Source of the DNA: Escherichia coli
GTDB lineage: Bacteria; Pseudomonadota; Gammaproteobacteria; Enterobacterales; Enterobacteriaceae
NCBI RefSeq assembly: GCF_044324785.1
Contig: NZ_CP172127.1
Strand: one strand, 5' to 3'
DNA: 64,000 nt
Shown: positions 21,787 to 53,328 of the stretch, piece by piece
Layout of the letters: each line of letters begins with the position of its first letter
Position numbering within the stretch: position 1 is the first letter of the stretch
Position numbers and translations under genes: made by a program
Notes under the pieces: model-generated
Databases searched by the model: none
What the model saw: only the letters and a program-made list of their open reading frames with translations
What the model was told of the DNA's origin: nothing

Positions 21787-21802
21787 ACGAAAGGCATCTG
21801 AT

Positions 21803-22165
21803 ATGGAAACCAGACTCAACCTGCTTTGCGATGCAGGCGTTATTGATAAGGACATCTGCAAAGGCATGATGCAGGTCGTCAAGGTACTGGAAACAGAGTG
21901 CCATCTGCCGGTGCGCAGTGAGCAAGGAACGATGGCAATGACACATATGGCGAGTGCACTGATGCGCAGTCGCCGTGGTGAAGAAATAGAGCCGCTGGAC
22001 GCCGAATTGCTGGCAGAACTGGCGCAATCCAGCCACTGGCAAGCCGTTGTGCAATTGCATCAGGTGTTGTTGAAGGAATTTACACTGGAAGTTAACCCGT
22101 GTGAAGAAGGCTATTTGCTGGCCAACCTTTATGGATTATGGATGGCTGCTAACGAAGAGGTTTGA
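21803..22165 (+). CDS. yhfY: small PRD-domain-like regulatory protein (family assignment from recollection)
   Basis: ORF track 134 aa trimmed to METRLNLLCD. Confidence 0.75.
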   Translation: METRLNLLCDAGVIDKDICKGMMQVVKVLETECHLPVRSEQGTMAMTHMASALMRSRRGEEIEPLDAELLAELAQSSHWQAVVQLHQVLLKEFTLEVNPCEEGYLLANLYGLWMAANEEV

Positions 22166-22195
22166 AGCTCCCGACAAATCCACGTCGCACAACCT

Positions 22196-22219
22196 AAATA
22201 TTCAAAAAAATGAATATTT
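22196..22219. promoter_or_regulatory. perfect 9-6-9 inverted repeat (candidate operator or RNA hairpin) in the yhfY-yhfX gap
   Basis: AAATATTCA aaaaaa TGAATATTT, 30 nt upstream of the yhfX ATG. Confidence 0.4.
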
Positions 22220-22248
22220 AATTCAAGGAACAGAAACGAGGCAACAAG

Positions 22249-23412: not shown

Positions 23413-24638
23413 TGGCGCGATTTGTGGTGTTAGTGATTGATAGCTTTGGCGTAGGGGCAATGAAAGATGTCACGTTGGTGCGTCCGCAGGATGCCGGGGC
23501 GAATACCTGTGGTCACATCCTGAGCCAGTTGCCGCATTTGCAGCTACCAGCGCTGGAGAAGCTGGGGCTAATCAACGCATTGGGTTATGCACCAGGTGAT
23601 ATGCAGCCGTCAGACTCCGCAACTTGGGGTGTGGCAGAGCTGCAACATGAAGGTGGCGATACCTTTATGGGGCATCAGGAAATTTTAGGCACGCGCCCGT
23701 TACCGCCGCTGCGGATGCCCTTTCGTGATGTGATTGACCGTGTTGAGCAGGCATTAGTTTCCGCTGGCTGGCTGGTTGAGCGTCGTGGCGATGATCTGCA
23801 ATTTCTGTGGGTCAATCAGGCGGTTGCGATTGGCGATAATCTCGAGGCGGATTTAGGCCAGGTCTATAACATCACCGCCAATCTCTCTGTGATCTCTTTT
23901 GACGACGCAATCAAAATTGGTCGTATTGTGCGTGAGCAGGTACAGGTCGGTCGGGTCATTACATTTGGTGGCCTGTTAACCGACAGTCAACGCATTCTCG
24001 ATGCCGCAGAAAGCAAAGAAGGGCGCTTTATTGGTATCAATGCGCCGCGTTCTGGCGCTTATGACAACGGCTTCCAGGTCGTGCATATGGGCTACGGTGT
24101 CGATGAGAAAGTGCAGGTGCCGCAAAAACTGTATGAAGCGGGCGTGCCAACCGTGCTGGTGGGTAAGGTGGCGGATATTGTCAGCAATCCTTATGGCGTG
24201 AGCTGGCAAAACCTGGTGGATAGCCAACGGATTATGGATATCACTCTCAACGAATTTAACACCCATCCGACGGCGTTTATTTGTACCAATATCCAGGAAA
24301 CCGACCTCGCTGGTCATGCAGAAGACGTCGCACGTTATGCCGAACGTTTGCAGGTCGTTGACCGTAACCTTGCCCGGCTTATTGAGGCGATGCAGCCAGA
24401 TGATTGCCTGGTCGTGATGGCGGATCACGGTAACGATCCGACCATTGGTCACAGCCACCATACCCGCGAAGTGGTGCCAGTGCTGGTTTATCAGCAAGGG
24501 ATGGTCGCTACGCAGCTCGGTGTGCGCACCACGCTTTCTGATGTGGGGGCTACCGTGTGTGAATTTTTCCGTGCGCCACCGCCACAAAATGGTCGCTCTT
24601 TTCTTTCCTCCCTCCGGTTTGCAGGAGACACCCTATGA
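23412..24638 (+). CDS. yhfW: phosphopentomutase-like metalloenzyme, putative mutase
   Basis: ORF track 408 aa; N-terminus [17 protein letters not shown] resembles the DeoB-type metal-binding start. Confidence 0.82.
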
Positions 24639-25513
24639 GTATTGATCCGACGGGTTACACCCTCGCCCATGAGCATCTGCATATTGATCTCTCCGGCTTT
24701 AAAAACAACGTGGACTGCCGCCTTGATCAGTATGCGTTCATTTGCCAGGAGATGAACGACCTGATGGCCCAGGGCGTGCGTAATGTGATTGAGATGACCA
24801 ACCGTTACATGGGGCGAAATGCGCAATTTATGCTCGATGTGATGCACGAAACTGGCATCAACGTGGTGGCCTGTACCGGTTATTACCAGGATGCGTTTTT
24901 CCCGCAACATGTGGCGACCCGCAGCGTACAGGAACTGGCGCAGGAGATGGTCGATGAAATTGATCAGGGTATCGATGGCACGGAACTGAAAGCCGGGATC
25001 ATCGCGGAGATCGGCTCCAGCGAAGGGAAGATTACGCCGCTGGAAGAGAAGGTGTTTATTGCCGCCGCGCTGGCACATAACCAGACCGGACGCCCGATCT
25101 CCACGCATACGTCGTTCAGCACGATGGGGCTGGAACAACTGGCTCTGTTGCAAGCCCACGGAGTTAATCTTTCGCGCGTCACCGTTGGTCACTGCGATCT
25201 GAAAGACAACCTCGACAACATTTTGAAGATGATCGATCTCGGCGCGTATGTGCAGTTCGACACCATCGGCAAGAACAGTTACTACCCGGACGAAAGGCGC
25301 ATTGCGATGCTCCACGCGCTACGTGACCGTGGTTTGCTGAACCGCGTCATGCTGTCGATGGATATTACGCGCCGCTCCCATTTAAAAGCCAACGGTGGTT
25401 ATGGCTATGACTATTTATTGACCACCTTTATTCCGCAATTGCGCCAGTCAGGATTCAGTCAGGCCGATGTGGATGTGATGTTACGTGAAACTCCCTCTCA
25501 ATTTTTCCAATAA
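24635..25513 (+). CDS. php: phosphotriesterase-homology protein (amidohydrolase superfamily)
   Basis: ORF track 292 aa; N-terminal HxH metal motif ([14 protein letters not shown]). Confidence 0.9.
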
Positions 25514-25523
25514 GGACAGACTC

Positions 25524-25877
25524 ATGAAAAAGATTGGTGTTGCAGGCTTACAGCGTGAGCAGATTAAAAAAACCATTGAAGCGACGGCTCCTGGCTGTTT
25601 TGAAGTTTTCATTCACAACGACATGGAAGCGGCAATGAAAGTCAAATCCGGGCAACTGGATTACTACATCGGCGCGTGTAATACCGGTGCGGGCGCGGCA
25701 TTGTCGATTGCCATCGCGGTGATTGGCTATAACAAAAGTTGCACCATTGCCAAACCAGGCATTAAAGCGAAAGACGAACATATCGCCAAAATGATCGCCG
25801 AAGGGAAAGTGGCGTTTGGGCTTTCCGTTGAGCACGTCGAACACGCGATTCCGATGCTGATTAACCATCTGAAATAA
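25524..25877 (+). CDS. yhfU: small conserved protein of unknown function
   Basis: ORF track 130 aa trimmed to MKKIGVAGLQ (117 aa). Confidence 0.78.
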   Translation: MKKIGVAGLQREQIKKTIEATAPGCFEVFIHNDMEAAMKVKSGQLDYYIGACNTGAGAALSIAIAVIGYNKSCTIAKPGIKAKDEHIAKMIAEGKVAFGLSVEHVEHAIPMLINHLK

Positions 25878-25888
25878 AAGGCACGACT

Positions 25889-27193
25889 ATGGATCTGTAT
25901 ATTCAGATTATCGTGGTGGCGTGCCTGACGGGTATGACATCGCTTCTGGCGCATCGCTCGGCGGCCGTTTTTCATGACGGTATCCGCCCGATCCTGCCGC
26001 AACTGATTGAAGGCTATATGAACCGTCGCGAGGCGGGGAGTATCGCTTTTGGTCTGAGCATTGGTTTTGTGGCTTCGGTGGGGATCTCTTTTACCCTGAA
26101 AACCGGACTGCTCAACGCATGGTTACTCTTTCTTCCTACCGATATCCTCGGCGTACTGGCGATAAACAGCCTGATGGCGTTTGGTCTTGGCGCTATCTGG
26201 GGCGTGTTGATCCTTACTTGCCTGTTACCGGTAAACCAGCTGCTGACCGCGCTACCGGTGGATGTATTAGGTAGCCTGGGGGAATTAAGCTCGCCGGTGG
26301 TTTCAGCTTTTGCACTGTTCCCGTTGGTGGCGATTTTCTACCAGTTTGGCTGGAAGCAAAGTCTGATCGCCGCCGTGGTGGTACTGATGACCCGTGTGGT
26401 GGTAGTGCGCTATTTCCCGCATCTCAATCCGGAATCCATCGAAATCTTTATTGGCATGGTGATGCTGCTGGGGATCGCGATAACTCACGACCTGCGTCAT
26501 CGTGATGAAAATGATATTGATGCCAGCGGGCTTTCGGTGTTTGAAGAACGCACGTCGCGGATTATCAAAAACTTACCGTATATCGCTATTGTCGGGGCGC
26601 TGATTGCCGCCGTTGCCAGCATGAAGATTTTTGCTGGCAGTGAAGTGTCGATCTTCACACTGGAGAAAGCATATTCCGCAGGCGTAACGCCGGAACAATC
26701 ACAAACGCTGATTAACCAGGCAGCTCTGGCGGAATTTATGCGCGGGCTGGGTTTTGTACCGTTGATTGCCACCACCGCGTTAGCCACTGGTGTGTATGCA
26801 GTTGCGGGCTTTACCTTTGTTTATGCGGTGGGCTATCTCTCGCCGAATCCGATGGTTGCAGCGGTATTAGGCGCAGTGGTTATTTCGGCGGAAGTCCTGC
26901 TGCTTCGTTCGATCGGCAAATGGCTGGGGCGCTATCCGTCGGTGCGTAATGCGTCAGATAACATCCGTAACGCCATGAATATGCTGATGGAAGTGGCGTT
27001 GCTGGTCGGTTCGATTTTCGCAGCAATTAAAATGGCGGGTTATACCGGATTTTCTATCGCAGTTGCCATTTACTTCCTCAACGAATCCCTGGGCCGTCCG
27101 GTACAGAAAATGGCGGCACCGGTCGTGGCAGTAATGATCACCGGTATTCTGCTGAATGTTCTTTACTGGTTTGGCCTGTTCGTTCCGGCTTAA
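25889..27193 (+). CDS. yhfT: polytopic inner-membrane protein (putative transporter)
   Basis: ORF track 434 aa, hydrophobic throughout. Confidence 0.85.
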   Translation: MDLYIQIIVVACLTGMTSLLAHRSAAVFHDGIRPILPQLIEGYMNRREAGSIAFGLSIGFVASVGISFTLKTGLLNAWLLFLPTDILGVLAINSLMAFGLGAIWGVLILTCLLPVNQLLTALPVDVLGSLGELSSPVVSAFALFPLVAIFYQFGWKQSLIAAVVVLMTRVVVVRYFPHLNPESIEIFIGMVMLLGIAITHDLRHRDENDIDASGLSVFEERTSRIIKNLPYIAIVGALIAAVASMKIFAGSEVSIFTLEKAYSAGVTPEQSQTLINQAALAEFMRGLGFVPLIATTALATGVYAVAGFTFVYAVGYLSPNPMVAAVLGAVVISAEVLLLRSIGKWLGRYPSVRNASDNIRNAMNMLMEVALLVGSIFAAIKMAGYTGFSIAVAIYFLNESLGRPVQKMAAPVVAVMITGILLNVLYWFGLFVPA

Positions 27194-27204
27194 GGAAGGC
27201 ACCT

Positions 27205-28290
27205 ATGAAGACGTATCCTTTGCAAAGCCTGACGCTTATTGAGGCGCAGCAAAAGCAGTTTGCGCTGGTGGACACGATTTGCCGCCATTTTCCCGGCAGC
27301 GAGTTTCTTACCCGCGGGGATTTGGGCTTAACGCCGGGGCTGAATCAACCGCGCATTACCCAGCGAGTGGAACAGGTGCTGGCTGATGCATTTCACGCAC
27401 AGGCTGCGGCGCTGGTACAGGGCGCGGGTACTGGCGCGATCCGTGCGGCGTTGGCGGCTTTGCTCATACCGGGGCAGCGTCTTCTGGTGCATGACGCGCC
27501 TGTTTACCCGACGACTCAGGTCATTATTGAGCAGATGGGGCTGACGCTTATTACTGCTAATTTCAATGACCTGTCGGCACTTAAGCAGGTCGTCGAAGAG
27601 CAACAACCGGATGCGGCTCTGGTGCAGCATACGCGCCAGCAGCCGCAGGACGGGTACATTCTGGCAGATGTGCTGGCAACGTTGCGCTCGGCTGGCGTTC
27701 CTGCATTAACCGATGACAACTATGCGGTGATGAAGGTAGCGCGAATTGGCTGCGAATGCGGGGCAAATGTCTCGACTTTTTCCTGCTTCAAGCTGTTTGG
27801 GCCGGAGGGTGTTGGCGCGGTGGTAGGCGATGCCGATGTTATTAGTCGGATTCGCGCCACGCTCTACTCCGGCGGCAGCCAGATTCAGGGCGCTCAGGCG
27901 TTGGAAGTCTTGCGTGGGCTGGTGTTTGCGCCAGTGATGCACGCGGTGCAGGCGGGGGTATCTGAACGGTTGCTGGCCTTGCTCAACGGTGGTGCAGTTC
28001 CGGAAGTGAAAAGCGCCGTCATTGCCAATGCACAGTCGAAGGTGTTGATTGTCGAGTTTCATCAGCCGATTGCCGCCAGAGTGCTGGAAGAGGCGCAAAA
28101 GCGCGGTGCCTTGCCTTACCCGGTTGGTGCAGAGTCGAAATATGAAGTTCCGCCACTTTTTTATCGACTTTCCGGAACGTTTCGCCAGGCGAATCCGCAA
28201 CTCGAACATTACGCGATTCGTATTAACCCAAATCGCAGCGGTGAAGAGACGGTGCTGCGGATTTTGCGTGAGAGTATTGCGAGTATTTAA
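27205..28290 (+). CDS. yhfS: conserved protein of unknown function (possibly PLP-dependent; uncertain)
   Basis: ORF track 361 aa; last gene of the yhf block. Confidence 0.8.
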   Translation: MKTYPLQSLTLIEAQQKQFALVDTICRHFPGSEFLTRGDLGLTPGLNQPRITQRVEQVLADAFHAQAAALVQGAGTGAIRAALAALLIPGQRLLVHDAPVYPTTQVIIEQMGLTLITANFNDLSALKQVVEEQQPDAALVQHTRQQPQDGYILADVLATLRSAGVPALTDDNYAVMKVARIGCECGANVSTFSCFKLFGPEGVGAVVGDADVISRIRATLYSGGSQIQGAQALEVLRGLVFAPVMHAVQAGVSERLLALLNGGAVPEVKSAVIANAQSKVLIVEFHQPIAARVLEEAQKRGALPYPVGAESKYEVPPLFYRLSGTFRQANPQLEHYAIRINPNRSGEETVLRILRESIASI

Positions 28291-28326
28291 TGCTGGATAG
28301 CCCCGTTCGGCAATCAAGCTAAATTC

Positions 28327-28395
28327 AGCGCCGGACGGTCCCCGCAACGCGCCAGCATCGCCGGATGCGATGCTGGCGCATCTTATCCGGCCTAC
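28327..28395. repeat. REP/BIME element between convergent yhfS and frlR
   Basis: cgccggatgcgatgctggcgcatcttatccggcctac matches the canonical REP palindrome; partial second unit upstream. Confidence 0.75.
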
Positions 28396-28397
28396 GG

Positions 28398-29129
28398 TTA
28401 ATGTCTTTTATTATCAATCGTTAAGGTGATGCGGTTGGCGCGGCAGAAGAGTTCGGAGACGTGCACCGGTTTGTTATTCTGATCAAAGGCGATTTTGCTG
28501 ATGCGAAACAGCGGTTCGCCCAGTTCGCATTTCAGCCATTTTGCCTGCGGGCGGGTGGCGGCAAAAATATCGATAGTCTTTTTATCGCTGACCACTCGCG
28601 TGTCAAAACGCTCCTGAAATAACTGATAGGTGGAGCTTCCTTCGACGTAAATCTCATCAAAGTCAGGATAACGCGACAGCGGGATCCAGGAACTATCAAT
28701 AAACAGCGGCTCTTTATCGAGATACATCACCCGGCAAAGATGGAACACTTCGCTGTTACCGGGGATGTTCAGCTTTTCGCAAAACGGCGCGGCGCTGACC
28801 CGTTCCTGTTCGATCACTTTCTCTTTCGTCGCCTTGCCTTGTGAGACGCCAAAATCGGTAAAACCACTGACAGTAAGCAGGGCGTTTTCAACTTTCTGGC
28901 TTTGTACAAAGGTGCCTTTGCCCTGCCAGCGGATCAGTACGCCGTCTGCCACTAAGTCGCTGATGGCTTTGCGAATGGTAATGCGGCTGACGTTATATTG
29001 CGTACAAAGCTCGTTTTCGGTAGGGATCTGTTGCCCGGCCTGGTAAACCCCCTGCGCGATATCATCCAGCAACCGCTGGCGGACGGTAGCGTAGAGGAGT
29101 TGATGAGAGTAGCGGTCCGTAGCTGACAT
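28398..29129 (-). CDS. frlR: GntR-family transcriptional regulator of the fructoselysine operon
   Basis: ORF track 265 aa trimmed to MSATDRYSHQLLYATV (243 aa); N-terminal HTH. Confidence 0.88.
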   Translation of the reverse strand: MSATDRYSHQLLYATVRQRLLDDIAQGVYQAGQQIPTENELCTQYNVSRITIRKAISDLVADGVLIRWQGKGTFVQSQKVENALLTVSGFTDFGVSQGKATKEKVIEQERVSAAPFCEKLNIPGNSEVFHLCRVMYLDKEPLFIDSSWIPLSRYPDFDEIYVEGSSTYQLFQERFDTRVVSDKKTIDIFAATRPQAKWLKCELGEPLFRISKIAFDQNNKPVHVSELFCRANRITLTIDNKRH

Positions 29130-29228
29130 AATCGACCCTGAAATAAAGAATGAATTACACGGATTATAGGGTCGTTTTCCGGCAAGTAACAGCATGTTGG
29201 CGTGAAGATGCTCACGCCAACGTTATGC

Positions 29229-30014
29229 CTACCAGGCACCGTGGTACTGAATAGTTTGTGCCGCGCACGCCGTTCCCTGCGCCATCGCCTGCGGTAATGT
29301 CATCCCCGCAGACCAGCCGCAAAGGAATCCGGCAATGAACGAATCTCCGGCACCCATGGTGTCGATAACCGTCACCGGTTCAGGATCCTGACGCCAGAAC
29401 TGCGCGCCATCCCAGGCAATACTGCCGTTTTCACCCAGCGTGACAATCACCACGCCTGCGCCACGGGCAACAATCGCCTTCATCTTCAGACGTAACGCTT
29501 CGTCTTCTTGCGGCGCGGAGGCAAAGGCAAAATCGAGATGCGGCACCAGTGTCTGCCAGAGCGGGCTGTCCCACTTGTCGGAGAAGTCGAAAGCGGTAAG
29601 TTTTCCCGCTGCGTGCAGGTGCGGGAATGCGTCCTCCGCATGTCCCCAGATTGCCGCGTGCACAATGTCATATTGCGCCAGCCAGGCGTAATCCTCTTCG
29701 CTCAGGGCAAAGTCGGCCATCACGCCTTCGGTGTAGTCGCCAAAAACGCGATCGTTGTCGTGCAGTTCCACCTGAGTTTGTGCGGTAACGCCGTGTTTCG
29801 TATGGACATGGCTGATATCGACGTCCATGCGGGCAAGATCCTGCTTCAGCTTTGTGCCGTAGTCATCATCTCCCACCCAGGTAATGCATCCCGGCTTTAT
29901 GCCGTAGCGAGTGCAGTACACCGCCACGTTCACCGCATTACCGCCAGAAAACGCTTTATTCAGTTGCGGGTAGATATCGACGCAGTTATCGCCGATTGTC
30001 GCCAGGTTTTTCAT
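29229..30014 (-). CDS. frlD: fructoselysine 6-kinase (PfkB-family sugar kinase)
   Basis: ORF track 261 aa; PfkB C-terminal motif DTMGAGDSF. Confidence 0.9.
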
Positions 30015-30841
30015 CTCGCATCCTCCGGCAGCAGCGCGCGAAAGCGTTCCAGCGCCTGGCGAGCGTAGAGTCTGGGTTCGTTCATATACATCGTTACCAG
30101 TTCCACTGTGCAGTACCCCTCATAACCCCGGTCGATAATATCGCGCATCAACTCCCGCAGCGGCATTTTGCCTTCGCCGGGAATGTAATGCGTGTCGCTG
30201 GCCCCGTCGCTGTCGACAATATGCAAATGACGCAATTTATCGCCCAGTTTGTCGAAATAACTCATCACCGGTTCCGCCTGGACATACGGCGCACAAATGT
30301 CGACCATGCTGAACAGACGCGGCGAAGGCACCAGCGCCAGCGCATGAAGCACATCATTGGCATTACACACGACGTTCGATTCATACGGCGTTAACGGTTC
30401 GAGGATCAGATCCATGCCGATGTTTTCCGCGTACTCACACAGTTCGCTTAGGTTCTCTGCCAGCCGCCCCCAGATAACGTTAGGCGGCGTGAGATAACCC
30501 GCGTGGGCCGCGGAAATCAGCGTATAACCGGCGTTCATCTCTTTTGCCATATCCATCGCCAGCTTGATCATGTCGAGGCTTTCGCGACGCATATGTTCAT
30601 CGCCCAGCATCATGTTATACGGATAGCCATTAGTTTCTGGCGTATAACCGACAATCGGCATCTGATACGTCTGCGCCAGCGCTTTAATGTGTTTGATGCC
30701 GCCCGCTTTTAAGTCCGGCGCGAACGCGTGCGGGCGACCGCCCCAAATTTCGATGCCGTCGTAACCCAGCTCGCTTGCATCACGAAATGCTTGTTCAATA
30801 GGCAGCCGCTGGTGGCCGCAGGTAAACATACCTGTTTTCAT
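30011..30841 (-). CDS. frlC: fructoselysine 3-epimerase (xylose-isomerase-like TIM barrel)
   Basis: ORF track 324 aa trimmed to [16 protein letters not shown] (276 aa). Confidence 0.88.
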
Positions 30842-30890
30842 CGGGTAACTCCTTGCGTAAATCCGGCCCGTTGCCGGGCCGGGAGAGGGA

Positions 30891-31913
30891 TTAATATTCC
30901 ACCAGACCACCGTAATAGCGGCGTTCATCCGGGTTGTGATCTTTGTAAATAGACAGGTAGTAGCAGAGCCACTCCATCGGCACAAACATCAGGAACGGTG
31001 CCAGCCACGGGTGCAGCCCTTGCGAAATTTCGGCGTAATCAATGACGATCACGTTGTCAGTACGCTGTTTAACAAAGTTAATGGCGCGTTCGGTGGTGTG
31101 GCGACTTTCGTCATTGCCGAGCAGGAACAGGAACGGAACGCCCGGCTCGACAATTTCCAGTGGGCCGTGGCGGAACTCTCCGCTTTCGATCACGCAGCCG
31201 TGCGTCCAGGTAAATTCCATTAGCGTTACAATGCCTTCTTTGTAACCCAGCGGGCGCAGCGGGCCTGCGGCAACCGTGTAAATCATCGGCCACTGGCTGG
31301 CCTGTTCACCAAGCTGGCGGCCTTTTTCTTCCCAGGTGCGTACCAGATGACCGAGCGCATTCGGCAGCTGTTTGAGATCGTTTTTGATCTTGCCGATTTC
31401 CGCGTTCGGCGCGAGGCGGGTGATCATCTCCAGCACCACGCTGTAGCAGAGCAGCAGATGAATTTCCCAAATACAGTCGGCCTGATAATCAATGCTAAAT
31501 TCCGCCGCCGAGGTAATCGGGCTGTCCGCGCGTTTGGTGAACGCCGCAGTGAGCGCGCCGCAGGCCCGGCCCAGCTCCAGCGCTTTGATCACCTCTTCGG
31601 TTTTACCGTAGTCAGAAACGCCAATCACCGCGCAACGATTGTCGAGGCGATACGGGGTGTTATCGCAGAACTCCCAGCCGGAAATGGCGTAGACCTGAAG
31701 ATCGGAAAAGCGATCCGCCAGATGTTTCGCCGTTTGCGCCGCGTTGAGTGGCGATCCGCAGGCAACGAAATAAATACGATTAATGTCGCGCTTCACCATC
31801 TCTTCCACGATGGCATGCACCAGCGGAACGTCATGGCTGAGAACTTTTTCCACTTCCTGAACCATATTTTCGGTGACCAGAAAGTCCACGGTGCTTTTAT
31901 CAATATCCAACAT
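30891..31913 (-). CDS. frlB: fructoselysine-6-phosphate deglycase (SIS-domain protein)
   Basis: ORF track 347 aa trimmed to [11 protein letters not shown] (340 aa). Confidence 0.88.
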
Positions 31914-31933
31914 TTTATTTTCTCCAGATAACA

Positions 31934-33322
<1,389 letters not shown>

Positions 33323-33565
33323 TTAAAAGATAACATGACAATGCATGATGAATATAACAACATATGATGTTATGTAATGTGGAGGAAGATCACAAAATTT
33401 CGCACAGGATCGCGCTGTGGCTAATGGATGTAGTTATCAAATTGAATTTAAAGTGAAAATATTTTTACGGGCGGGGGCAAGAAGGACATAGAAACAAATA
33501 CGCCCTCGGAAAATCCAGAGGGCGTCGGGCAATTAAACCGGTGTTAGCCGATTTCTGTCAGAGAC

Positions 33566-33979: not shown

Positions 33980-35353
33980 TTAATGGTTGGAGAACCAGTT
34001 CAGTTTATCGCGCAGGCCAACAACCCGACCAATAATAATTAGCGATGGACTGTTCATTTGCTGCGCTAGTTCGCCCAGCTGTGTGAGCGTACCGTCAATC
34101 ACGCGCTGCGTGACTGCTGTTCCGTTTTCGACAATTGCCACCGGCATTTCGCCAGGCATACCGTGTTCAATCAGCTTTTGCTGAATGGTCGCGGCCTGAT
34201 TCAGCCCCATATAGAACACCAGCGTCTGTTTTTCTGCCGCCAGGTTTTCCCAGTCCAGCTCGCCACCGGTTTTTAAGTGTCCGGTAATTAAGCGTACGCT
34301 CTGGGCATAATCGCGATGCGTGAGCGGAATACCCGAATAGGCAGAGCAACCAGAAGCTGCGGTAATACCCGGAACCACCGAGAACGGAATACCCGCGTTG
34401 CACAGTGTTTCCAGCTCTTCGCCACCACGGCCAAAAATAAACGGATCGCCACCTTTCAGCCGCACCACGCGTTTGCCTTTTTGCGCTTCCCGCAGCAGGA
34501 TCTGGTTTATCTCTTCCTGCGGTACGCAGTGGTATCCCGCGCGTTTGCCGACGAAAACGCGATCAGCATCGCGGCGTACCAGATTCATAATATCGTCAGA
34601 AACTAGACGGTCGTAGACCACCACATCTGCCTGCTGAATTTGTTGCAGACCTTTCAGTGTCAGCAGCCCGGCATCGCCCGGACCTGCGCCAACCAGCACC
34701 ACTTCACCGCGATGGTCGAGCGGTTCGTTGATTAACTGTTCGGTCGTTTCAGTAATGGCTTTCTGATCGTTGTTTGCCAGCGACTGCGCCAGACGGTCAT
34801 TAACGAACAGTTTTTCCCAGAAACGGCGACGTTCACCCATTGTTGCGAACTGTTGTTTCACTCGACCGCGTAATTGCCCGGCGTATTTCGCTACCTGGCC
34901 CAGATGCAACGGCAGCAGTGATTCAAGTTTTTCACGCAACAGGCGTGCCAGAACCGGAGAGGTGCCGCCAGAGGAGACCGCGACCATGAGCGGTGAGCGG
35001 TCAATAATCGACGGCATAATAAAGCTGGCGGCTTTCGGCGCATCGACCACGTTACAGAAGATGCGACGAGCTTCAGCGGCTTCACTGACGCGCTGGTTAA
35101 GCGCGTCATCATCCGTCGCAGCAATCGCCAGCCAGCAGGTGTCGAGAAGGCTTTCATCAAATGGCCCTTCGACGAGGGTTAACATGCCTGCATCTGCCCA
35201 TGCGGTGAACTGCGGAATAAACGCTAATGCATTCACCGTTAAGCGAGCGCCTGCGTCTAACAGTAACCTTGCTTTGCGTTCCGCGACATCACCACCGCCG
35301 ACAATCAGACAGTCGCGATCGCGTAATTGGCAAAATATAGGCAAATGATCCAC
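33980..35353 (-). CDS. cysG: siroheme synthase (uroporphyrinogen-III methyltransferase / dehydrogenase / ferrochelatase)
   Basis: ORF track 457 aa; methyltransferase motif [18 protein letters not shown]. Confidence 0.95.
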
Positions 35354-35371: not shown

Positions 35372-36178
35372 TTAACCGGCAGCTGTTTCAGTTTGATTAA
35401 ATTTGTCCGCAACCGGACGATTCGCTTTCGGCGTAGCATACCAATAACCCAATCCCATGAATACGGCACCTGATAAAGTATTACCCAGCGTCACCCACAG
35501 CAGGTTATGACCAATACCCGCCAGCGTGTAGGCTTCGCTGTGGTTGCCAAACCAGGAGAGGGCGAACAGCGTCATGTTAGCGATGGAGTGCTCGTAGCCG
35601 GACGCGATAAATGCCAGCAGACACCACCAGATAGCGATAAATTTCGCCGCCCCTTCAGTGCGCAGCGCCATCCAGATAGCCAGGCAAACCAGCCAGTTAC
35701 ACAATGCACCTTTGAAGAACAGTACCATTGCCGGTGCAGTGGTTTTAGCCAGCGCGACGGAGTGAACGATGCTGGTATCTACCGGCAGCAGGCTACCGCC
35801 ACCCCAGCTATAGAGCATGGCAACGAAGACGGAACCGACCAGGTTACCCAGCCAGGTTTGCGGCAGGATTGCCCACATTTGCCCGTGGCTGATAGTGCCT
35901 GCTTTCACCCCAAAGGTGAGGAACATGGTGTGTCCGGTGAACAGTTCAGAACCAGCAATAATGACCAGCGTTAAGGCGATACCAAAGGTCGCACCCATCA
36001 CCAGAGGACGTACGGACGGATCGAGCAAATTACCGAGCGTGAAAATCAGGATGATCCCAAGACCCACATACGCCCCCGCCATGGCGGAGCTGACCCAGAA
36101 GCCGAGCGGGTTATTTGCCGACAGGCGTGCAATGCGCGCAGCGTTAGCCGCACACTTATTAATAGTGTCTGTAAACAT
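35372..36178 (-). CDS. nirC: nitrite transporter (formate/nitrite transporter family)
   Basis: ORF track 268 aa, polytopic membrane protein. Confidence 0.93.
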   Translation of the reverse strand: MFTDTINKCAANAARIARLSANNPLGFWVSSAMAGAYVGLGIILIFTLGNLLDPSVRPLVMGATFGIALTLVIIAGSELFTGHTMFLTFGVKAGTISHGQMWAILPQTWLGNLVGSVFVAMLYSWGGGSLLPVDTSIVHSVALAKTTAPAMVLFFKGALCNWLVCLAIWMALRTEGAAKFIAIWWCLLAFIASGYEHSIANMTLFALSWFGNHSEAYTLAGIGHNLLWVTLGNTLSGAVFMGLGYWYATPKANRPVADKFNQTETAAG

Positions 36179-36304: not shown

Positions 36305-36631
36305 TTAACCGCGCAGCTGTACCACGCCGTCTTTCACTCGTGCTTCGTAGTGCTTGACGGAAAACTGTTCGTCTTCCATGCACAAGCCGTCGCTTAAGCG
36401 AAAACGCTGTTTTTTCAGCGGGCTGGCGACCCACAGCTCGCCCTGATGTTCCGCAATCAGCCCGCGTGACAGCACGCTGGACTCGAAGAACGGATCGATG
36501 TTGCTGATCGCAAACACCTGGTCGCTGTGATATGGGCGGAAAATCGCGACCTGCTCGTCACCTAACAGCGCGCAGACGCCGGTTTCAGGCAGGATGTCAT
36601 CGATTTTGCAGATGTCTTTCCACTGGCTCAT
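36305..36631 (-). CDS. nirD: nitrite reductase small subunit (Rieske-like)
   Basis: ORF track 108 aa; overlaps the nirB stop. Confidence 0.93.
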   Translation of the reverse strand: MSQWKDICKIDDILPETGVCALLGDEQVAIFRPYHSDQVFAISNIDPFFESSVLSRGLIAEHQGELWVASPLKKQRFRLSDGLCMEDEQFSVKHYEARVKDGVVQLRG

Positions 36632-39171
36632 GCGTTGTCCTCCACCAGAGTTACCGGGATACGTTCATACGGCGTTGCCGGACGGTGCTGTTCGCGCTCT
36701 GGCACCATCTGCACGTTCGGGTCACGCTTGTCGCTGTTGATGAAGTGTTTGAAGCGAGTCTGCGCAGACGGCGTATTGACCGTTTCAGTCCACTCACACA
36801 CTACCGCTTCACGCAGGCGCGCCATCTCTTCTTCCAGATGAGCGTTCAGCCCCAGTTTGTCGTCAATGATCACCGCTTTCAGGTAATCGATGCCGCCTTC
36901 GAGGTTTTCTAACCACGGTGCGGTACGCGTCAGTTTGTCGGCAGTACGGATGTAGAACATCATGAAGCGGTCGAGATATTTGATCAGCGTTTCGCGATCG
37001 ATATCCGCCGCCAGCAGATCCGCATGACGCGGTTTCATGCCGCCGTTACCGCAAACATACAGGTTCCAGCCTTTTTCAGTGGCGATAATACCCACGTCTT
37101 TACCCTGAGCTTCTGAACATTCACGGGTACAGCCGGAGACACCGAACTTCATTTTGTGCGGCGTACGGATGCCTTTGTAGCGGTTTTCCAGTTCCACGCC
37201 GAGGCCCACGCTATCGCCCACGCCGTAGCGGCACCAGGTGCTACCCACGCAGGTTTTCGCCATACGCAGTGCTTTCGCATAGGCATGACCGGTTTCGAAG
37301 CCGGCTTCAATCAGCTGACGCCAGATCTCCGGCAGATCGTCTTTCTGTGCGCCAAACATCGCCAGGCGCTGGGAGCCGGTGATTTTGGTGTAGAGATTAA
37401 ATTCACGCGCGATACGACCCACCGCCATCAGCCCTTCCGGGGTGATTTCACCGCCCGGAGAACGCGGGATCACCGAGTAGGTGCCGTCTTTCTGGATGTT
37501 AGCGAGGAAGTTATCGTTAGAATCCTGCAGCGGAGTATGTTCCGGCTTCAGAATGTATTCGTTCCAGCAGGAGGCCAGCAGCGAACCGACGGTCGGTTTA
37601 CAAACTTCACAACCGTAGCCTTTGCCGTGTTTCGCCAGCAGTTCTTCGAAGGTTTTAATGCCTTCAACGCGGATTAAATGGAACAGTTCCTGACGCGAAT
37701 AAGCAAAGTGTTCGCACAGGTTGTTGTTAACTTCGATGCCCTGTTTCGCCAGTTCCGCGTTCAGTACCTGAGTGACCAGCGGGATACAGCCACCGCAGCC
37801 AGTACCCGCTTTGGTTTCAGCTTTCAGCGCCGCAACGGTGTGGCAGCCTTTGTTGATAGCAGCAATCAGGTCGCCTTTGGTGACGTCGAAGCAGGAGCAG
37901 ATTTGCGCGCTGTCCGGCAGTTTATCAACACCGATAGACGGCTTACCGCTACCAGAGTGCGCCGGCAGAATCAGAGAATCCGGGTTTTCCGGCAGCTCGA
38001 TAGCGTTCAGCACCAGTTGCAGCAGGTTACCGTAGTCGCTGGTATCGCCCACCAGTACCGCACCGAGCAGGGTTTTGTTGTCTTCGCTGACAATCAGGCG
38101 TTTGTAGATCTCTTTGCTTTCGTCGAGGTAAACGTAGCTACGTGCGCCAGGCGTGCGACCGTGCGCATCACCAATACCGCCTACGTCTACGCCCAGCAGT
38201 TTCAGCTTGGCGCTAAGGTCAGCACCTTCAAAGGCGTTTTCGCTGCCAAGAATATGGTCAACGGCGACCTGCGCCATTTTGTAGCCTGGTGCTACCAGAC
38301 CAAATACACGGTTGTTCCAGCTTGCGCATTCACCGATGGCGTAGATATCCGGATCGGAAGTCTGGCAGGAATCATTTATGACGATACCCCCACGCGGAGC
38401 AACGTCCAGACCACACTGGGTTGCCAGCTTATCGCGCGGACGGATACCGGTAGAGAAGACGATAAAGTCGACTTCCAGTTCGCTGCCGTCGGCAAAACGC
38501 ATGGTTTTACGCGCTTCAACACCTTCCTGCACAATCTCAAGGGTGTTTTTGCTGGTGTGAACGCGCACGCCCATACTTTCGATTTTGCGACGCAGCTGCT
38601 CGCCGCCCATCTGATCAAGCTGTTCCGCCATCAGCATAGGGGCAAATTCGATAACGTGGGTTTCAATACCTAAGTTTTTCAGCGCGCCAGCGGCTTCCAG
38701 ACCTAACAGGCCGCCGCCAACAACGGCACCACGTTTGCTGCGACGGGCGCAGGATTCAATGGCGTTGAGGTCTTCAATGGTGCGGTAGACAAAGCAGTCC
38801 TGGGTATCAGAACCTTTAATTGGCGGGATCCACGGGTAGGAACCGGTCGCCATGATCAGCTTGTCATAAAAAACGGTGCGCCCGGCGCTGGAGTGAATCA
38901 CCTTCTCCTGACGGTTGATGGTGATAGCGCGTTCGCCGACCAGAACTTTGATACCGTGTTTCTCGTAGAAGCCTTCGCGCACCAGCGACAGCTCTTCGGC
39001 GGTGTGGTGAGAGAAGTAAGACGAGAGGTGTACGCGGTCATAAGCGATGCGCGGTTCTTCACAGAAAACGGTAATATCAAAGTTGGCCGCATCAGATTTA
39101 TCAAGAAGATCTTCGATAAAGCGATGGCCGACCATACCGTTACCGATAATTGCGAGTCTGACTTTGCTCAT
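36628..39171 (-). CDS. nirB: NADH-dependent nitrite reductase large subunit
   Basis: ORF track 847 aa; N-terminal FAD/NAD fold MSKVRLAIIGNGMVGHRF. Confidence 0.96.
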   Translation of the reverse strand: MSKVRLAIIGNGMVGHRFIEDLLDKSDAANFDITVFCEEPRIAYDRVHLSSYFSHHTAEELSLVREGFYEKHGIKVLVGERAITINRQEKVIHSSAGRTVFYDKLIMATGSYPWIPPIKGSDTQDCFVYRTIEDLNAIESCARRSKRGAVVGGGLLGLEAAGALKNLGIETHVIEFAPMLMAEQLDQMGGEQLRRKIESMGVRVHTSKNTLEIVQEGVEARKTMRFADGSELEVDFIVFSTGIRPRDKLATQCGLDVAPRGGIVINDSCQTSDPDIYAIGECASWNNRVFGLVAPGYKMAQVAVDHILGSENAFEGADLSAKLKLLGVDVGGIGDAHGRTPGARSYVYLDESKEIYKRLIVSEDNKTLLGAVLVGDTSDYGNLLQLVLNAIELPENPDSLILPAHSGSGKPSIGVDKLPDSAQICSCFDVTKGDLIAAINKGCHTVAALKAETKAGTGCGGCIPLVTQVLNAELAKQGIEVNNNLCEHFAYSRQELFHLIRVEGIKTFEELLAKHGKGYGCEVCKPTVGSLLASCWNEYILKPEHTPLQDSNDNFLANIQKDGTYSVIPRSPGGEITPEGLMAVGRIAREFNLYTKITGSQRLAMFGAQKDDLPEIWRQLIEAGFETGHAYAKALRMAKTCVGSTWCRYGVGDSVGLGVELENRYKGIRTPHKMKFGVSGCTRECSEAQGKDVGIIATEKGWNLYVCGNGGMKPRHADLLAADIDRETLIKYLDRFMMFYIRTADKLTRTAPWLENLEGGIDYLKAVIIDDKLGLNAHLEEEMARLREAVVCEWTETVNTPSAQTRFKHFINSDKRDPNVQMVPEREQHRPATPYERIPVTLVEDNA

Positions 39172-39229
39172 TTTTGCCTCGATTTCTTTTCTATTACCGC
39201 CTACCTTAACGATTCAGCAACCCCGCTTA

Positions 39230-39243
39230 TTGATGTAAATCAA
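39230..39243 (-). promoter_or_regulatory. FNR box of the nirB promoter
   Basis: TTGAT-GTAA-ATCAA, exact match to FNR consensus TTGAT-N4-ATCAA, about 65 nt upstream of the nirB start codon. Confidence 0.85.
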
Positions 39244-39256
39244 ATTCACCTTTATA

Positions 39257-39272
39257 TACTCCTTAAGGGGTA
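39257..39272 (-). promoter_or_regulatory. NarL/NarP 7-2-7 heptamer pair of the nirB promoter
   Basis: TACTCCT-TA-AGGGGTA inverted heptamers, centred 28 bp upstream of the FNR box centre. Confidence 0.75.
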
Positions 39273-39432
39273 TATTGCTGATTTGTATAAATTTTCTTAA
39301 GTCACGGAATTGTCTGACATTTCATGTTTGTGCAAAAAACAGACAAAATGAACGGGTTTATAGAAATAGATGTACGTAGCAGGGTAAGAGAGGAAAAGGC
39401 CGGACGACGATAGCGCCGCCCGGCATGAGCAA

Positions 39433-40614
39433 TTAATGAGAGGTCAGGGTGTTATGCTGACGGTGACGGCTGACGAAACCTAACAGGAAGCACATCACAA
39501 AGACGACAGCGTACAGACCGTTTGCTGTAAGCAGTGCCGCCTGCGGACCGCTATGTTCAACAATCGGGCCGGTAACCACAAAGGTCAACATAGTACCGAT
39601 GGTCCCGCAGGTCAGGACAAAGTTAACCAGTTTTGGCGACGGTACTTTGGTCTGCTGTGAACCCAGGGTGATGATGGTGGTATAGATCGCGCTGGAGAAG
39701 AAGCCCAGGGCGAGAATTGACCACGCCATATGTGCCGGTGTTCCGGTGTTAAAGACGTACATCAGAATCGCAGCCAGACCAGCCAGTACGGTCAGGATAC
39801 GTTGCAAATCAAAGAAGCGAAGAATAAAGCTGAACGCCCACATGCCGACCATATATGACATCCAGAAGTTACTCACCAGCGTGCCCGCGTCGTTCAGGCT
39901 CATGCCCAGGCCTTTGGCATACTCCGGCACCCAGGAGATAAAACCTAACTGACCGAGGATGTAGCACAGCGCCGCAACAGAGAGAAACAGCACGCCGATC
40001 CCCCATTTTTCTTTCACTACCGGAGCATCCGTTTTTGGCGCATGTTTGCCCAGCGCCGGGAACTCACAACCGAAGGTCAGAATAAAAATAGCGACATACA
40101 CCAGCCCGATGCAGGCATAAACCCAGTACCACTCAATGCTGCGCGCCAGTAGAAACGCGGCGATCATTGGGAAAATCATCCCAGCCATACTGAAGAAGGA
40201 GTCGGTAAATAACAGGCGGGAACCGCGCTGACGCCCTTCATACATTTGTGTTATCAGGAATGTACCAATCGACATGGTGATGCCGCTGACCACCCCGAGA
40301 ATGAACATCGCCGCCGAGAACAGCGCCAGGCTGTGGCTGAACATCAAACCGGCAACCGCCAGCACCATCAGGAGAAAGCCAAAACGTAACTGCGTTTTCA
40401 ACGGGACGATTTCCATCAGCCAGGCGTTGAGGAAGATAGAGATTAAAATGCCGGCGTTGAGGAAGGTGAAGGTATTACTCATACTGGAAACAGGCAGATT
40501 GAAATAATCGGCGATATTTCCCATCACCATCCCGGTGACAATAACCAACGCACCGGTCAGTGCGTAGGAGAGAAAGCTAATCCATGTGAGCTTGATGCGA
40601 TTGCTGTTAGTCAT
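39433..40614 (-). CDS. tsgA: MFS-type membrane transporter
   Basis: ORF track 393 aa, polytopic. Confidence 0.88.
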
Positions 40615-50074: not shown

Positions 50075-50982
<908 letters not shown>

Positions 50983-51438
50983 TCCAGGAGATGCTCCTGC
51001 ATGGCTTTCAGATATGCATTTTCTGCGCGAAGATAACGCAGCTCATTCTTCATCTCTTCCGGCGTCATGTTTGCCTCGTTTTCATGGGTATCATCAGAAC
51101 GGGTCATGCTTTTCTCCTTCCTGCGCCTGATAAAGGCCTCATTACCAGATTTGCGGTAGCCTTTTATCCAGTTTTTAACCGTGTTGTGGCTGGGAATGTT
51201 AAACCGGGCAGCTACCCGGGGTAGAGACTCAGAATGCCCGAGAGCATAAAGAACCACGCAAAGTTTATCTTCAGGAGAATAGCTACGCTTGTGTCTGCAA
51301 TCCAGTGCCCGAGGACCGTGAAGAAGAAAAAGATTAATCCAGTGTGAGAGGCTGGTGTGAGAAAGTTGAAAGAGTTTTGCCGTAGAAATGATGCCTGCAT
51401 GACCAGCCAGGTAATGATTTACAGCGGCAAGTTTTACT

Positions 51439-53328
51439 TCAAATGAATGTTTCATAAACTGCACCTTCAGATGTCAGATTATGTCCAACATTTGGGGTGC
51501 AGTTCATGGCTTGCTGTTGCAGGCATGCGGTCAGTTCTGCTTTACGGCTTTGATCGTACAGTTCGCTGTCGCCGAGTTTCTCTTCCGCCTGCGCCAGCTG
51601 TGCGTTCAGCTTCTCCATCTCTTTTTCCAGACGGGCAATCTCTTTACGCAGTGGCTGGGTTTGCGCACGCAGCTCCGCTTCCCGACGCTTCTGATCTTTA
51701 CGTGCCTGGGCGCTGTTCGCGTTCTCTTTTGGCGAGTCGTCGGCCTGGTTTTCCTGCTTTTGTACGTCGCTCAACCACTGTTGATAATCTTCCAGATCGC
51801 CGTCGAACGGTTCGACTTTACGATCGTGAACCAGGTAGAGATCGTCAGTGGTGGAACGCAGCAAATGACGGTCGTGCGAGACGACAACCAGCGCGCCTTC
51901 GAACTCGATTAATGCTTCGGTGAGAGCCTGACGCATGTCGAGGTCAAGGTGGTTGGTCGGTTCGTCGAGCAGCAGCAGATTCGGACGCTGCCAGACGATT
52001 AATGCCAGCACCAGGCGGGCTTTTTCCCCACCGGAAAAGCGGCGCGTTTCTTCCGTCACTTTATCGCCCTGGAAACCAAAGCCGCCGAGGTAGTCACGCA
52101 GTTTTTGTTCCAGTTCCTGCGGCGCTAAACGTGCCAGATGTTGAATAGGCGATTCGTCGGCGCGCAGGTATTCCAGTTGATGCTGGGCGAAGTAGCCGAG
52201 CTTGATCCCTTTCGCCAGATCAATTTCACCGCTGACTGGCGCAAGTTCGCCGGCTAACAGTTTGATTAATGTCGATTTACCCGCGCCGTTGCGGCCTAAC
52301 AGACCAATGCGCGAGCCGGGGACCAGATTCAGTTTAATCGAGTCGAGAATAATGCGATCACCATAGCCTGCGCTGACTTTTTCCATCTTTAATAACGGAT
52401 TAGGCAGGCTTTCCGGCGCGCGGAAGCTAAAACGAAACGGGTTGTCAACGTGCGCGGGGGCAATCAGCTCCATACGCTCGAGCATCTTAATGCGGCTCTG
52501 GGCCTGCTTCGCTTTGGTGGCTTTGGCACGGAAACGGTCGATATAACTTTGCAGATGCGCCACGCGTTCCTGCTGGCTTTCGTACATCGCTTGTTGCTGC
52601 GCCAGACGGGTGGCGCGCTGCACTTCAAACGAACTGTAGTTGCCGGTGTACTCGAACATGCTTTGTTGTTCGATATGAATAATTTTATCAACGATCGGAT
52701 CGAGGAAGTCGCGGTCGTGAGAGATCAGGATCAGCGTGCCCTGATAGCTCTTCAGCCATTTTTCCAGCCAGATAACGGCATCGAGATCGAGGTGGTTAGT
52801 CGGTTCGTCGAGCAGCAGCAAGTCTGAACGGCAAATCAGCGCCTGGGCAAGGTTAAGACGCATACGCCAGCCCCCGGAAAAATCACTTACCGGGCGCTCC
52901 AGTTGTTCATTGCTGAAACCGAGGCCGTGCAGCAGGCTGGCGGCGCGGGAGCGAATACTCCATGCGTCGATAGCATCCAGCTTGCCATGAATGGTCGCAA
53001 TGGCGTGCCCGTCGTTACGTTCGTTGGCGTCGTGTAGCTGCGCTTCCAGTTGACGATATTCACGGTCGCCGTCAATGACATATTCCAGCGCCGCTTGCGG
53101 TAACGCCGGCGTTTCCTGATTCACCCACGCCAGTTGCCAGCTTCCCGGAAAGGTGTAGCTGCCGCCGTCGGCGCTGATTTCATTTTTCAGCAATGCCAGC
53201 AGGGTAGATTTACCACAGCCGTTTTTACCCACCAGGCCGACTTTCTGCCCGGGGTTGATGGTGGCGGTGGCATTATCCAGCAGGACGCGCACGCCGCGAC
53301 GAATTTGTAACGAGGAGAAAACAATCAT
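51439..53328 (-). CDS. yheS: ABC-F ATPase YheS with the 3' end interrupted by the IS: 607 native residues fused to 22 IS-encoded residues
   Basis: ORF track 629 aa; two ABC cassettes (Walker A GKNGCGKST and GRNGAGKST, signature LSGG); the reading frame crosses the IS boundary at 51506/51507 and stops inside the IS. Confidence 0.9.
   Translation of the reverse strand: MIVFSSLQIRRGVRVLLDNATATINPGQKVGLVGKNGCGKSTLLALLKNEISADGGSYTFPGSWQLAWVNQETPALPQAALEYVIDGDREYRQLEAQLHDANERNDGHAIATIHGKLDAIDAWSIRSRAASLLHGLGFSNEQLERPVSDFSGGWRMRLNLAQALICRSDLLLLDEPTNHLDLDAVIWLEKWLKSYQGTLILISHDRDFLDPIVDKIIHIEQQSMFEYTGNYSSFEVQRATRLAQQQAMYESQQERVAHLQSYIDRFRAKATKAKQAQSRIKMLERMELIAPAHVDNPFRFSFRAPESLPNPLLKMEKVSAGYGDRIILDSIKLNLVPGSRIGLLGRNGAGKSTLIKLLAGELAPVSGEIDLAKGIKLGYFAQHQLEYLRADESPIQHLARLAPQELEQKLRDYLGGFGFQGDKVTEETRRFSGGEKARLVLALIVWQRPNLLLLDEPTNHLDLDMRQALTEALIEFEGALVVVSHDRHLLRSTTDDLYLVHDRKVEPFDGDLEDYQQWLSDVQKQENQADDSPKENANSAQARKDQKRREAELRAQTQPLRKEIARLEKEMEKLNAQLAQAEEKLGDSELYDQSRKAELTACLQQQAMNCTPNVGHNLTSEGAVYETFI

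What the first reader, a model, noticed from the sequence alone, without database searches (positions are those of the whole stretch)
39230..39272. Canonical FNR plus NarL/NarP architecture at the nirB promoter
A perfect FNR box (TTGAT-GTAA-ATCAA) and a 7-2-7 inverted heptamer pair (TACTCCT-TA-AGGGGTA) lie 28 bp apart centre to centre, matching the known -41.5/-69.5 arrangement of the nir promoter. This is reported as confirmation that the anaerobic nitrite-reductase control region is intact, not as a novelty.
Basis: partly seen in the sequence, partly recalled or inferred. Interest (0 to 1): 0.15.

Follow-up and report, generated by a model that had tools for sequence, protein, structure and literature searches.

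The report
Textbook nirB promoter, FNR plus NarL/NarP
This is the well-studied oxygen- and nitrate/nitrite-responsive promoter of the E. coli nitrite reductase operon, present and intact in this strain, so the finding is correct but ordinary.

Summary
TTGATGTAAATCAA lies at 39230-39243 and TACTCCTTAAGGGGTA at 39257-39272, with centres 28 bp apart. Each is the only match in the 64 kb window, and the joint pattern never occurred in 100 shuffles.

The sites sit upstream of nirB, which is on the minus strand (36628-39171). The window is E. coli, collinear with K-12 tsgA-nirBDC-cysG. From -106 to the ATG it matches K-12 MG1655 except for one base at -72 (39267; C here, A in K-12), in the distal NarL/NarP heptamer. 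Both bases fit the TACYYMT consensus. The window's 80-mer is exact in 3775 of 5425 complete E. coli genomes, against 1199 for K-12's.

Placing FNR at -41.5 puts +1 at 39195, 24 nt before the ATG. This agrees with the published start (23-24 nt) and the published -10 hexamer TAAGGT.

In nirB upstream regions from other species, 103 had an FNR box. Of these, 86 have a 7-2-7 site exactly 28 bp upstream of it.

Two caveats. "Intact" is shown by sequence only. The upstream Fis/IHF region is a rare haplotype, exact in 40 genomes.

The parts
39230..39243 (-). FNR box TTGATTTACATCAA (palindromic half-sites TTGAT/ATCAA), centred at -41.5 relative to the inferred +1
   Evidence: Identical to K-12. FNR at -41.5 for nirBDC-cysG is listed in PMC3688515. 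Half-sites are >=90% conserved across 89 species.
39257..39272 (-). NarL/NarP 7-2-7 site TACCCCT-TA-AGGAGTA, centred at -69.5. The heptamers are centred at -74 (39266-39272) and -65 (39257-39263).
   Evidence: TACYYMT consensus from PMC4886647; NarL at -69.5 from PMC10853779. A 7-2-7 site lies exactly 28 bp from the FNR centre in 86/103 species.
39267..39267 (-). Position -72, the sixth base of the distal heptamer: C here, A in K-12 MG1655. This is the only difference from K-12 between -106 and the ATG.
   Evidence: The window's 80-mer is exact in 3775/5425 genomes and K-12's in 1199. Across species this position is C in 62 and A in 24.
39203..39208 (-). -10 hexamer TAAGGT (-13 to -8)
   Evidence: PMC4216584 names TAAGGT as the -10 needed for anaerobic activation. 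Conserved across species. No consensus sigma-70 -35/-10 pair was found, as expected for an activator-dependent class II promoter.
39195..39195 (-). Inferred transcription start (A), 24 nt upstream of the nirB ATG
   Evidence: Derived from FNR at -41.5. Agrees with the mapped start 23-24 nt upstream of the ATG cited in PMC4216584. Not mapped in this strain.
39172..39194 (-). Remainder of the 24-nt nirB 5' UTR (the UTR runs from +1 at 39195), with Shine-Dalgarno GAGG at 39177-39180
   Evidence: Folding is unremarkable (z = -0.31). The SD is conserved across species.
39205..39218 (-). Cra (FruR)-like site GCTGAATCGTTAAG, centred at -16.5 and overlapping the -10
   Evidence: Consensus scan with 1 mismatch. 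Identical to K-12. The published Cra site at -16.5 is recalled from memory (Tyson et al. 1997) and was not checked in a held paper.
39271..39283 (-). IHF-like core AATCAGCAATATA (-88 to -76), overlapping the first bases of the distal NarL heptamer
   Evidence: 2 mismatches to WATCAANNNNTTR. ATCAGC at -87..-82 is >=90% conserved in 89 species. PMC10853779 places the IHF site at -88 and says it clashes with NarL at -69.5.
39330..39344 (-). Fis-like core GTCTGTTTTTTGCAC, centred at -142. Position -145 (39340) is G here and A in K-12.
   Evidence: Fis repression at pnir is described in PMC10853779 and PMC3688515. The -142 coordinate is recalled from Browning et al. 2008, which is not held.
39399..39424 (-). 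Intrinsic terminator of the upstream gene tsgA (11-bp stem followed by a T-run), which separates pnir from tsgA transcription
   Evidence: tsgA is the ORF at 39433-40614 (-).
36628..39171 (-). nirB, NADH-nitrite reductase large subunit, 847 aa
33980..36631 (-). Rest of the operon: nirD (36305-36631, 108 aa), nirC (35372-36178, 268 aa), cysG (33980-35353, 457 aa)
   Evidence: The lengths equal the K-12 annotations.

Best explanation
The 43 bp are the core regulatory module of the E. coli nir operon promoter (pnir, nirBDC-cysG), read on the minus strand. Under anaerobiosis, FNR binds the perfect TTGAT-N4-ATCAA box centred at -41.5. It acts as a class II activator for a promoter that has only a weak -10 (TAAGGT) and no usable -35. 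Phosphorylated NarL or NarP, signalling nitrate or nitrite through NarX/NarQ, binds the 7-2-7 inverted heptamers centred at -69.5. According to the K-12 literature it raises transcription mainly by displacing IHF from the overlapping -88 site, which relieves IHF/Fis repression of FNR-dependent initiation. Shown here: the sequence, its position, its near-identity to K-12, the agreement of all spacings with the published start, and deep conservation of the arrangement. Inferred from the K-12 literature: actual binding and the anti-repression mechanism in this strain.
For: The sites are present, unique in the window, and exactly spaced. The locus is tsgA-nirB-nirD-nirC-cysG of E. coli. There is one base difference from K-12 between -106 and the ATG, and it lies within the TACYYMT consensus. 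With +1 at 39195, consensus scans place FNR at -41.5, the heptamers at -74 and -65, a Cra-like site at -16.5, a Fis-like core at -142 and an IHF-like core at -88..-76. These match published or recalled coordinates. The published start is 23-24 nt upstream of the ATG, the -10 is TAAGGT, and the NarL site spans -79..-60 (PMC4216584). FNR at -41.5 is in PMC3688515. NarL at -69.5 displacing IHF at -88 and relieving Fis repression is in PMC10853779. FNR, NarXL and NarQP all activate nirBDC (PMC8139620). In an anchor-based sample of nirB upstream regions, 103 of 118 have an FNR box. Of these, 86 have a 7-2-7 site with <=2 mismatches exactly 28 bp upstream, against 11 such sites in 43,677 other offsets. 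The FNR half-sites, TAC/GTA, the IHF-like ATCAGC block and TAAGGT are the conserved blocks in an alignment of the window with 89 other species.
Against: No experiment was done on this strain, and the start site, binding and regulation are all transferred from K-12. The -72 base differs from the allele used in the published footprinting and mutagenesis. The upstream region holding the Fis I and IHF II sites is a rare haplotype, exact in only 40 of 5426 genomes, so the quantitative modulation could differ. The original papers (Tyson 1993/1994, Wu 1998, Browning 2000/2004/2008) could not be read. Their content is cited through later papers or from memory.
Confidence: 0.93

Rival explanations
1. 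The sites are as described, but NarL/NarP at -69.5 works mainly as a direct co-activator that contacts RNA polymerase (alpha-CTD) or FNR, rather than as an anti-repressor that evicts IHF.
For: NarL activates by direct polymerase contacts at yeaR, and in tandem at ogt (PMC10853779). The 28-bp spacing is held exactly in 86/103 species. That is a stereospecific constraint which simple displacement of a neighbouring protein would not obviously require.
Against: PMC10853779 and PMC3688515 both summarise the K-12 experiments (Browning 2000, 2004) as showing that NarL displaces IHF and relieves IHF/Fis repression. The IHF-like core overlaps the distal heptamer and is itself conserved, which could fix the spacing equally well. 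28 bp is about 2.7 helical turns, so the two dimers are not on the same face.
Confidence: 0.05
2. The two motifs are a chance co-occurrence without regulatory function.
For: None beyond the fact that both motifs are short.
Against: Expected counts are 0.03, 0.01 and 0.00 for the joint pattern. The sequence is identical to an experimentally dissected promoter. The arrangement is conserved across Enterobacterales, Aeromonas and some Vibrio.
Confidence: 0.005
3. The palindromic FNR box drives, or also drives, a promoter on the + strand, giving an antisense transcript running into tsgA.
For: The FNR box is symmetric. A -10-like TATATT lies at 39271-39276 on the + strand (read).
Against: That hexamer would put FNR near -46.5, not at the class II distance of -41.5. 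The promoter scan found no + strand promoter (one search hits). There is no ORF or Rfam RNA in that direction. The conserved -10, SD and fixed distance to the nirB ATG all point to the minus strand.
Confidence: 0.015

Closest known systems
E. coli K-12 nir operon promoter (pnir / nirBp)
   Same: Same locus (tsgA-nirBDC-cysG). Identical FNR box, proximal heptamer, spacer, Cra-like site, -10, 5' UTR and SD. Same -41.5/-69.5 geometry.
   Different: -72 is C, not A (TACCCCT versus TACCCAT). Upstream differences lie at -123, -145 (inside the Fis-like core), -157 and beyond. The upstream 80-mer is a rare haplotype, exact in 40 of 5426 genomes.
E. coli nrf operon promoter (pnrf)
   Same: FNR-activated, further induced by NarL/NarP, and repressed by IHF and Fis (PMC5434802 abstract). 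FNR is at -41.5 (PMC3688515).
   Different: It drives a different operon, the periplasmic nitrite reductase. From memory, the NarL/NarP site sits at -74.5, so the spacing is 33 bp rather than 28 bp. Fis overlaps the -10.
NarL-only promoters yeaR and ogt
   Same: They use the same 7-2-7 recognition element (PMC10853779).
   Different: NarL sits at -43.5 (yeaR) or at -44.5 and -77.5 (ogt) and recruits polymerase directly, without FNR. Here the 7-2-7 is upstream of an FNR class II site.
narG promoter
   Same: FNR at -41.5 combined with NarL and IHF (PMC3688515).
   Different: From memory, the NarL heptamers lie far upstream (around -200) and IHF acts positively by bending the DNA. There is no single 7-2-7 at -69.5.

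Membership tests
E. coli nir operon promoter (pnir) | Lies immediately upstream of nirBDC-cysG and downstream of tsgA | tested here: met
   The ORFs and their lengths match K-12. The window is collinear with K-12 3470617-3533353. Matching records are annotated tsgA/nirB.
E. coli nir operon promoter (pnir) | FNR consensus box centred at -41.5 from the transcription start | tested here: met
   A perfect box lies at 39230-39243. The implied +1 at 39195 is 24 nt before the ATG, matching the mapped start cited in PMC4216584. -41.5 is listed in PMC3688515. The start site is not mapped in this strain.
E. coli nir operon promoter (pnir) | NarL/NarP 7-2-7 inverted heptamers centred at -69.5 | tested here: met
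   TACCCCT-TA-AGGAGTA has both heptamers fitting TACYYMT, with its centre at -69.5. Supported by PMC10853779 and PMC4886647.
E. coli nir operon promoter (pnir) | -10 hexamer TAAGGT with no consensus -35 | tested here: met
   TAAGGT lies at 39203-39208. No sigma-70 consensus pair was found. Supported by PMC4216584.
E. coli nir operon promoter (pnir) | Upstream IHF and Fis sites that repress FNR-dependent initiation | tested here: inconclusive
   An IHF-like core at -88..-76 is identical to K-12 and conserved. A Fis-like core sits exactly at -142 but has G for A at -145. Motif matches do not show binding.
E. coli nir operon promoter (pnir) | Anaerobic, FNR-dependent expression that is further induced by nitrate/nitrite through NarL/NarP | not testable with these tools
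   Needs reporter or transcript assays. The regulator genes are outside the window.
Class II FNR-dependent promoter | FNR dimer site overlapping the -35 region, about 41.5 bp from +1 | tested here: met
   One search gives a centre of -41.5 with the literature-supported +1.
NarL/NarP 7-2-7 site | Two TACYYMT heptamers in inverted orientation separated by 2 bp | tested here: met
   Searches show zero mismatches in both heptamers.

The most novel reading that the evidence does not exclude
All mechanistic work on pnir used the K-12 allele, which is a minority form. Most E. coli, including this strain, carry TACCCCT at the distal heptamer, which is closer to symmetric with the proximal TACTCCT. This strain also has a rare upstream haplotype with a substitution in the Fis I core (-145 G). 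These natural variants might measurably change NarL/NarP affinity or Fis/IHF repression. If so, the nitrate/nitrite or growth-phase response of nirB would differ, by analogy with the strain-specific behaviour reported for pnrf (PMC5434802).
Probability: 0.1. Interest if true: 0.25.

Novelty: already known. Interest (0 to 1): 0.06.

Why it matters
This result is a positive control rather than a discovery. It shows that the first-stage motif reading was accurate and that this strain keeps the standard oxygen and nitrate/nitrite control of cytoplasmic nitrite reduction.

Two minor points may be of use.

- The K-12 reference promoter carries the less common base at -72 of the NarL/NarP site.
- The 28-bp FNR-to-7-2-7 spacing is kept almost without exception at nirB across Enterobacterales, Aeromonas and some Vibrio.

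Tried and rejected
- **Primary papers.** I tried to read Browning 2008 (DOI and PMC2580697), Wang & Gunsalus 2000 (PMC94705) and Jayaraman 1989 (PMC331540). None is held. Their content is cited through later papers or marked as memory.
- **Sequence strings in papers.** A full-text search for the site sequences found only an unrelated synthetic-biology paper. PMC4895483 had no promoter detail.
- **Promoter scan.** The sigma-70 consensus scan found no promoter. I read this as expected for a class II activator-dependent promoter, not as evidence against one.
- **RNA elements.** The Rfam scan of the whole window found nothing. Folding of the 5' UTR is unremarkable. I therefore dropped the idea of an RNA element at the leader.
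- **CRP instead of FNR.** The best CRP-consensus fit to the box has 3 mismatches. Rejected.
- **Extra NarL heptamers.** None fits the consensus in the intergenic region apart from the two in the 7-2-7 site.
- **Window source.** I first took the window to be strain ST2747 because 401 nt matched at 100%. The wider comparison gives only 98.4% identity plus indels, so the window is a different strain.

Full report
**Observation**

On the + strand the window reads TTGATGTAAATCAA at 39230-39243 and TACTCCTTAAGGGGTA at 39257-39272. TTGATNNNNATCAA occurs once in the 64 kb window against 0.03 expected. TACYYMTNNAKRRGTA occurs once against 0.01 expected. The joint 43-nt pattern, with up to three mismatches allowed, matches only here, and none of 100 shuffles produced a match.

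**Context**

- An 847-aa ORF on the minus strand (36628-39171) begins MSKVRLAIIGNGMVGHRF.
- It is followed by ORFs of 108, 268 and 457 aa. These are the lengths of K-12 NirD, NirC and CysG.
- A 401-nt query across the intergenic region hits 5425 of 5426 complete E. coli genomes, always between tsgA and nirB.
- The whole window is collinear with K-12 MG1655 3470617-3533353 in reverse orientation.
- The promoter must therefore be read on the minus strand: TACCCCTTAAGGAGTA-N13-TTGATTTACATCAA, with the FNR box proximal to nirB.

**Comparison with the published promoter**

Aligned with MG1655, the window is identical from -106 to the ATG except at one position. Window 39267, which is -72, is C here and A in K-12, so the distal heptamer is TACCCCT rather than TACCCAT. 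Both fit the NarL/NarP consensus TACYYMT (PMC4886647, citing Tyson 1993 and 1994).

Setting the FNR centre at -41.5 places +1 at 39195, an A 24 nt upstream of the ATG. PMC4216584, citing Jayaraman 1987 and Tyson 1993, gives three matching facts:

- the mapped start is 23 or 24 nt upstream of the ATG;
- the -10 hexamer is TAAGGT, here at 39203-39208;
- the NarL site spans -79 to -60, and here it runs from -77 to -62.

PMC3688515 lists FNR at -41.5 for nirBDC-cysG, and PMC10853779 places NarL at -69.5. With this +1, simple consensus scans also place:

- the heptamers at -74 and -65;
- a Cra-like site at -16.5;
- a Fis-like core exactly at -142;
- an IHF-like core at -88 to -76, overlapping the distal heptamer.

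The -16.5 and -142 coordinates agree with what I recall from Tyson 1997 and Browning 2008, which I could not read.

**Other features of the region**

No consensus sigma-70 promoter is detected, which fits an activator-dependent class II promoter with a poor -10 and no -35. The same scan finds the tsgA terminator at 39424-39399 on the minus strand, so pnir is separated from upstream transcription. The 24-nt leader has no unusual structure, and no Rfam family is found anywhere in the window.

**Population view**

| 80-mer | Region | Exact in complete E. coli genomes |
|---|---|---|
| Window core, -72 C | spans both sites | 3775 of 5425 |
| K-12 core, -72 A | spans both sites | 1199 of 5425 |
| Window upstream | -161 to -82 | 40 |

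The window therefore carries the majority core allele, and the model strain carries the minority one. A third allele, TACCACT, occurs in some strains, for example TOE51 and the GTDB representative in L056. E. albertii has CACCACT.

The window's upstream 80-mer is rare. It differs from K-12 at -123, at -145 (G for A, inside the Fis-like core) and at -157. From -71 to the ATG, all E. coli sequences I aligned are identical.

**Cross-species test**

I anchored a scan of 100,044 species representatives on nirB codons 9-20. This is independent of the promoter motifs.

- 118 loci had at least 140 nt of upstream sequence.
- 103 of these have an FNR box with at most one mismatch within 170 nt of the anchor.
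- Exactly 28 bp upstream of that box's centre, a 7-2-7 site with 0, 1 or 2 mismatches is present in 38, 21 and 27 loci. That is 86 of 103.
- Among 43,677 other offsets in the same sequences, only 11 sites reach two mismatches or fewer.

The loci with this arrangement include Escherichia, Citrobacter, Enterobacter, Klebsiella, Pantoea, Serratia, Yersinia, Pectobacterium, Hafnia, Rahnella, Aeromonas and some Vibrio. At the position equivalent to -72, C is seen in 62 species and A in 24.

An alignment of the window with 89 other species shows these conserved blocks: TTGAT and ATCAA, the outer TAC and GTA of the heptamers, ATCAGC at -87 to -82 (the IHF-like core), TAAGGT, and the Shine-Dalgarno sequence. 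The region around -142 is not conserved outside Escherichia.

**Mechanism**

What is shown here is the sequence, its geometry, its near-identity to a dissected promoter, and evolutionary constraint on the arrangement. The rest is inferred from K-12 work as summarised in PMC3688515, PMC10853779 and PMC8139620:

- FNR bound at -41.5 activates transcription under anaerobiosis.
- IHF at -88 and Fis repress this activation.
- Phosphorylated NarL or NarP bound at -69.5 displaces IHF and relieves the repression in response to nitrate or nitrite.

A rival reading is that NarL/NarP also acts through direct polymerase contact, as it does at yeaR and ogt (PMC10853779). The strict 28-bp spacing gives this some weight, but the conserved, overlapping IHF-like core explains the spacing equally well. 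Chance co-occurrence and a + strand promoter are effectively excluded.

**Verdict**

The only additions are descriptive: the -72 allele frequencies, the rare upstream haplotype, and the breadth of conservation of the 28-bp architecture. The most novel reading the evidence leaves open is that these natural variants change the quantitative response, as strain differences do at pnrf (PMC5434802). I rate this about 10% likely and of modest interest.

Noticed in passing
window 50075-51506: A 1432-bp IS1397 (IS3 family) is inserted about 95 nt before the stop of yheS. It has two transposase ORFs on the minus strand, with rve and HTH domains, and is flanked by a 4-bp direct repeat TGGC. The yheS ORF becomes 629 aa instead of the 637 aa implied by the K-12 annotation. 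The IS/yheS junction is found in none of 5426 complete E. coli genomes, so the insertion looks strain-specific. From memory, IS1397 usually targets REP/BIME palindromes, not coding sequence.
   Followed up: partly
window 39277-39356 (-161 to -82 of pnir): The upstream modulatory part of the nir promoter is a rare haplotype, exact in only 40 of 5426 genomes. G replaces K-12's A at -145 inside the Fis-like core GTCTGTTTTTTGCAC. E. albertii and a divergent E. coli lineage share the G, so it may be ancestral.
   Followed up: partly
window 39278-39291; L023, L069, L092, L103, L113: A degenerate FNR-like palindrome (TTTATACAAATCAG, 2 mismatches) is centred at -89.5, 48 bp upstream of the main FNR box, and overlaps the IHF-like core. 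In Serratia and Pantoea the equivalent site has only 1 mismatch. This may simply reflect the shared ATCAA of the IHF and FNR consensus sequences.
   Followed up: no
L019 (Moellerella), L020 (Morganella), L005 (Psychromonas): These nirB upstream regions have a good FNR box, but their best 7-2-7-like site lies 71 bp (or 60 bp) upstream rather than 28 bp. This could be a different arrangement or a chance match.
   Followed up: no
window 20738-28306: The yhfS-yhfZ block is only 95.7% identical to K-12, while the flanking blocks are 97.9-98.7% identical. This suggests a recombined or faster-evolving segment.
   Followed up: no
window 28291-33490 versus L003 (strain ST2747): About 5.2 kb present in the window, between yhfL and yhfS, is absent from strain ST2747. 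By collinearity with K-12 this is the frlABCDR fructoselysine operon. ST2747 matched the promoter at 100% but is only 98.4% identical overall.
   Followed up: partly
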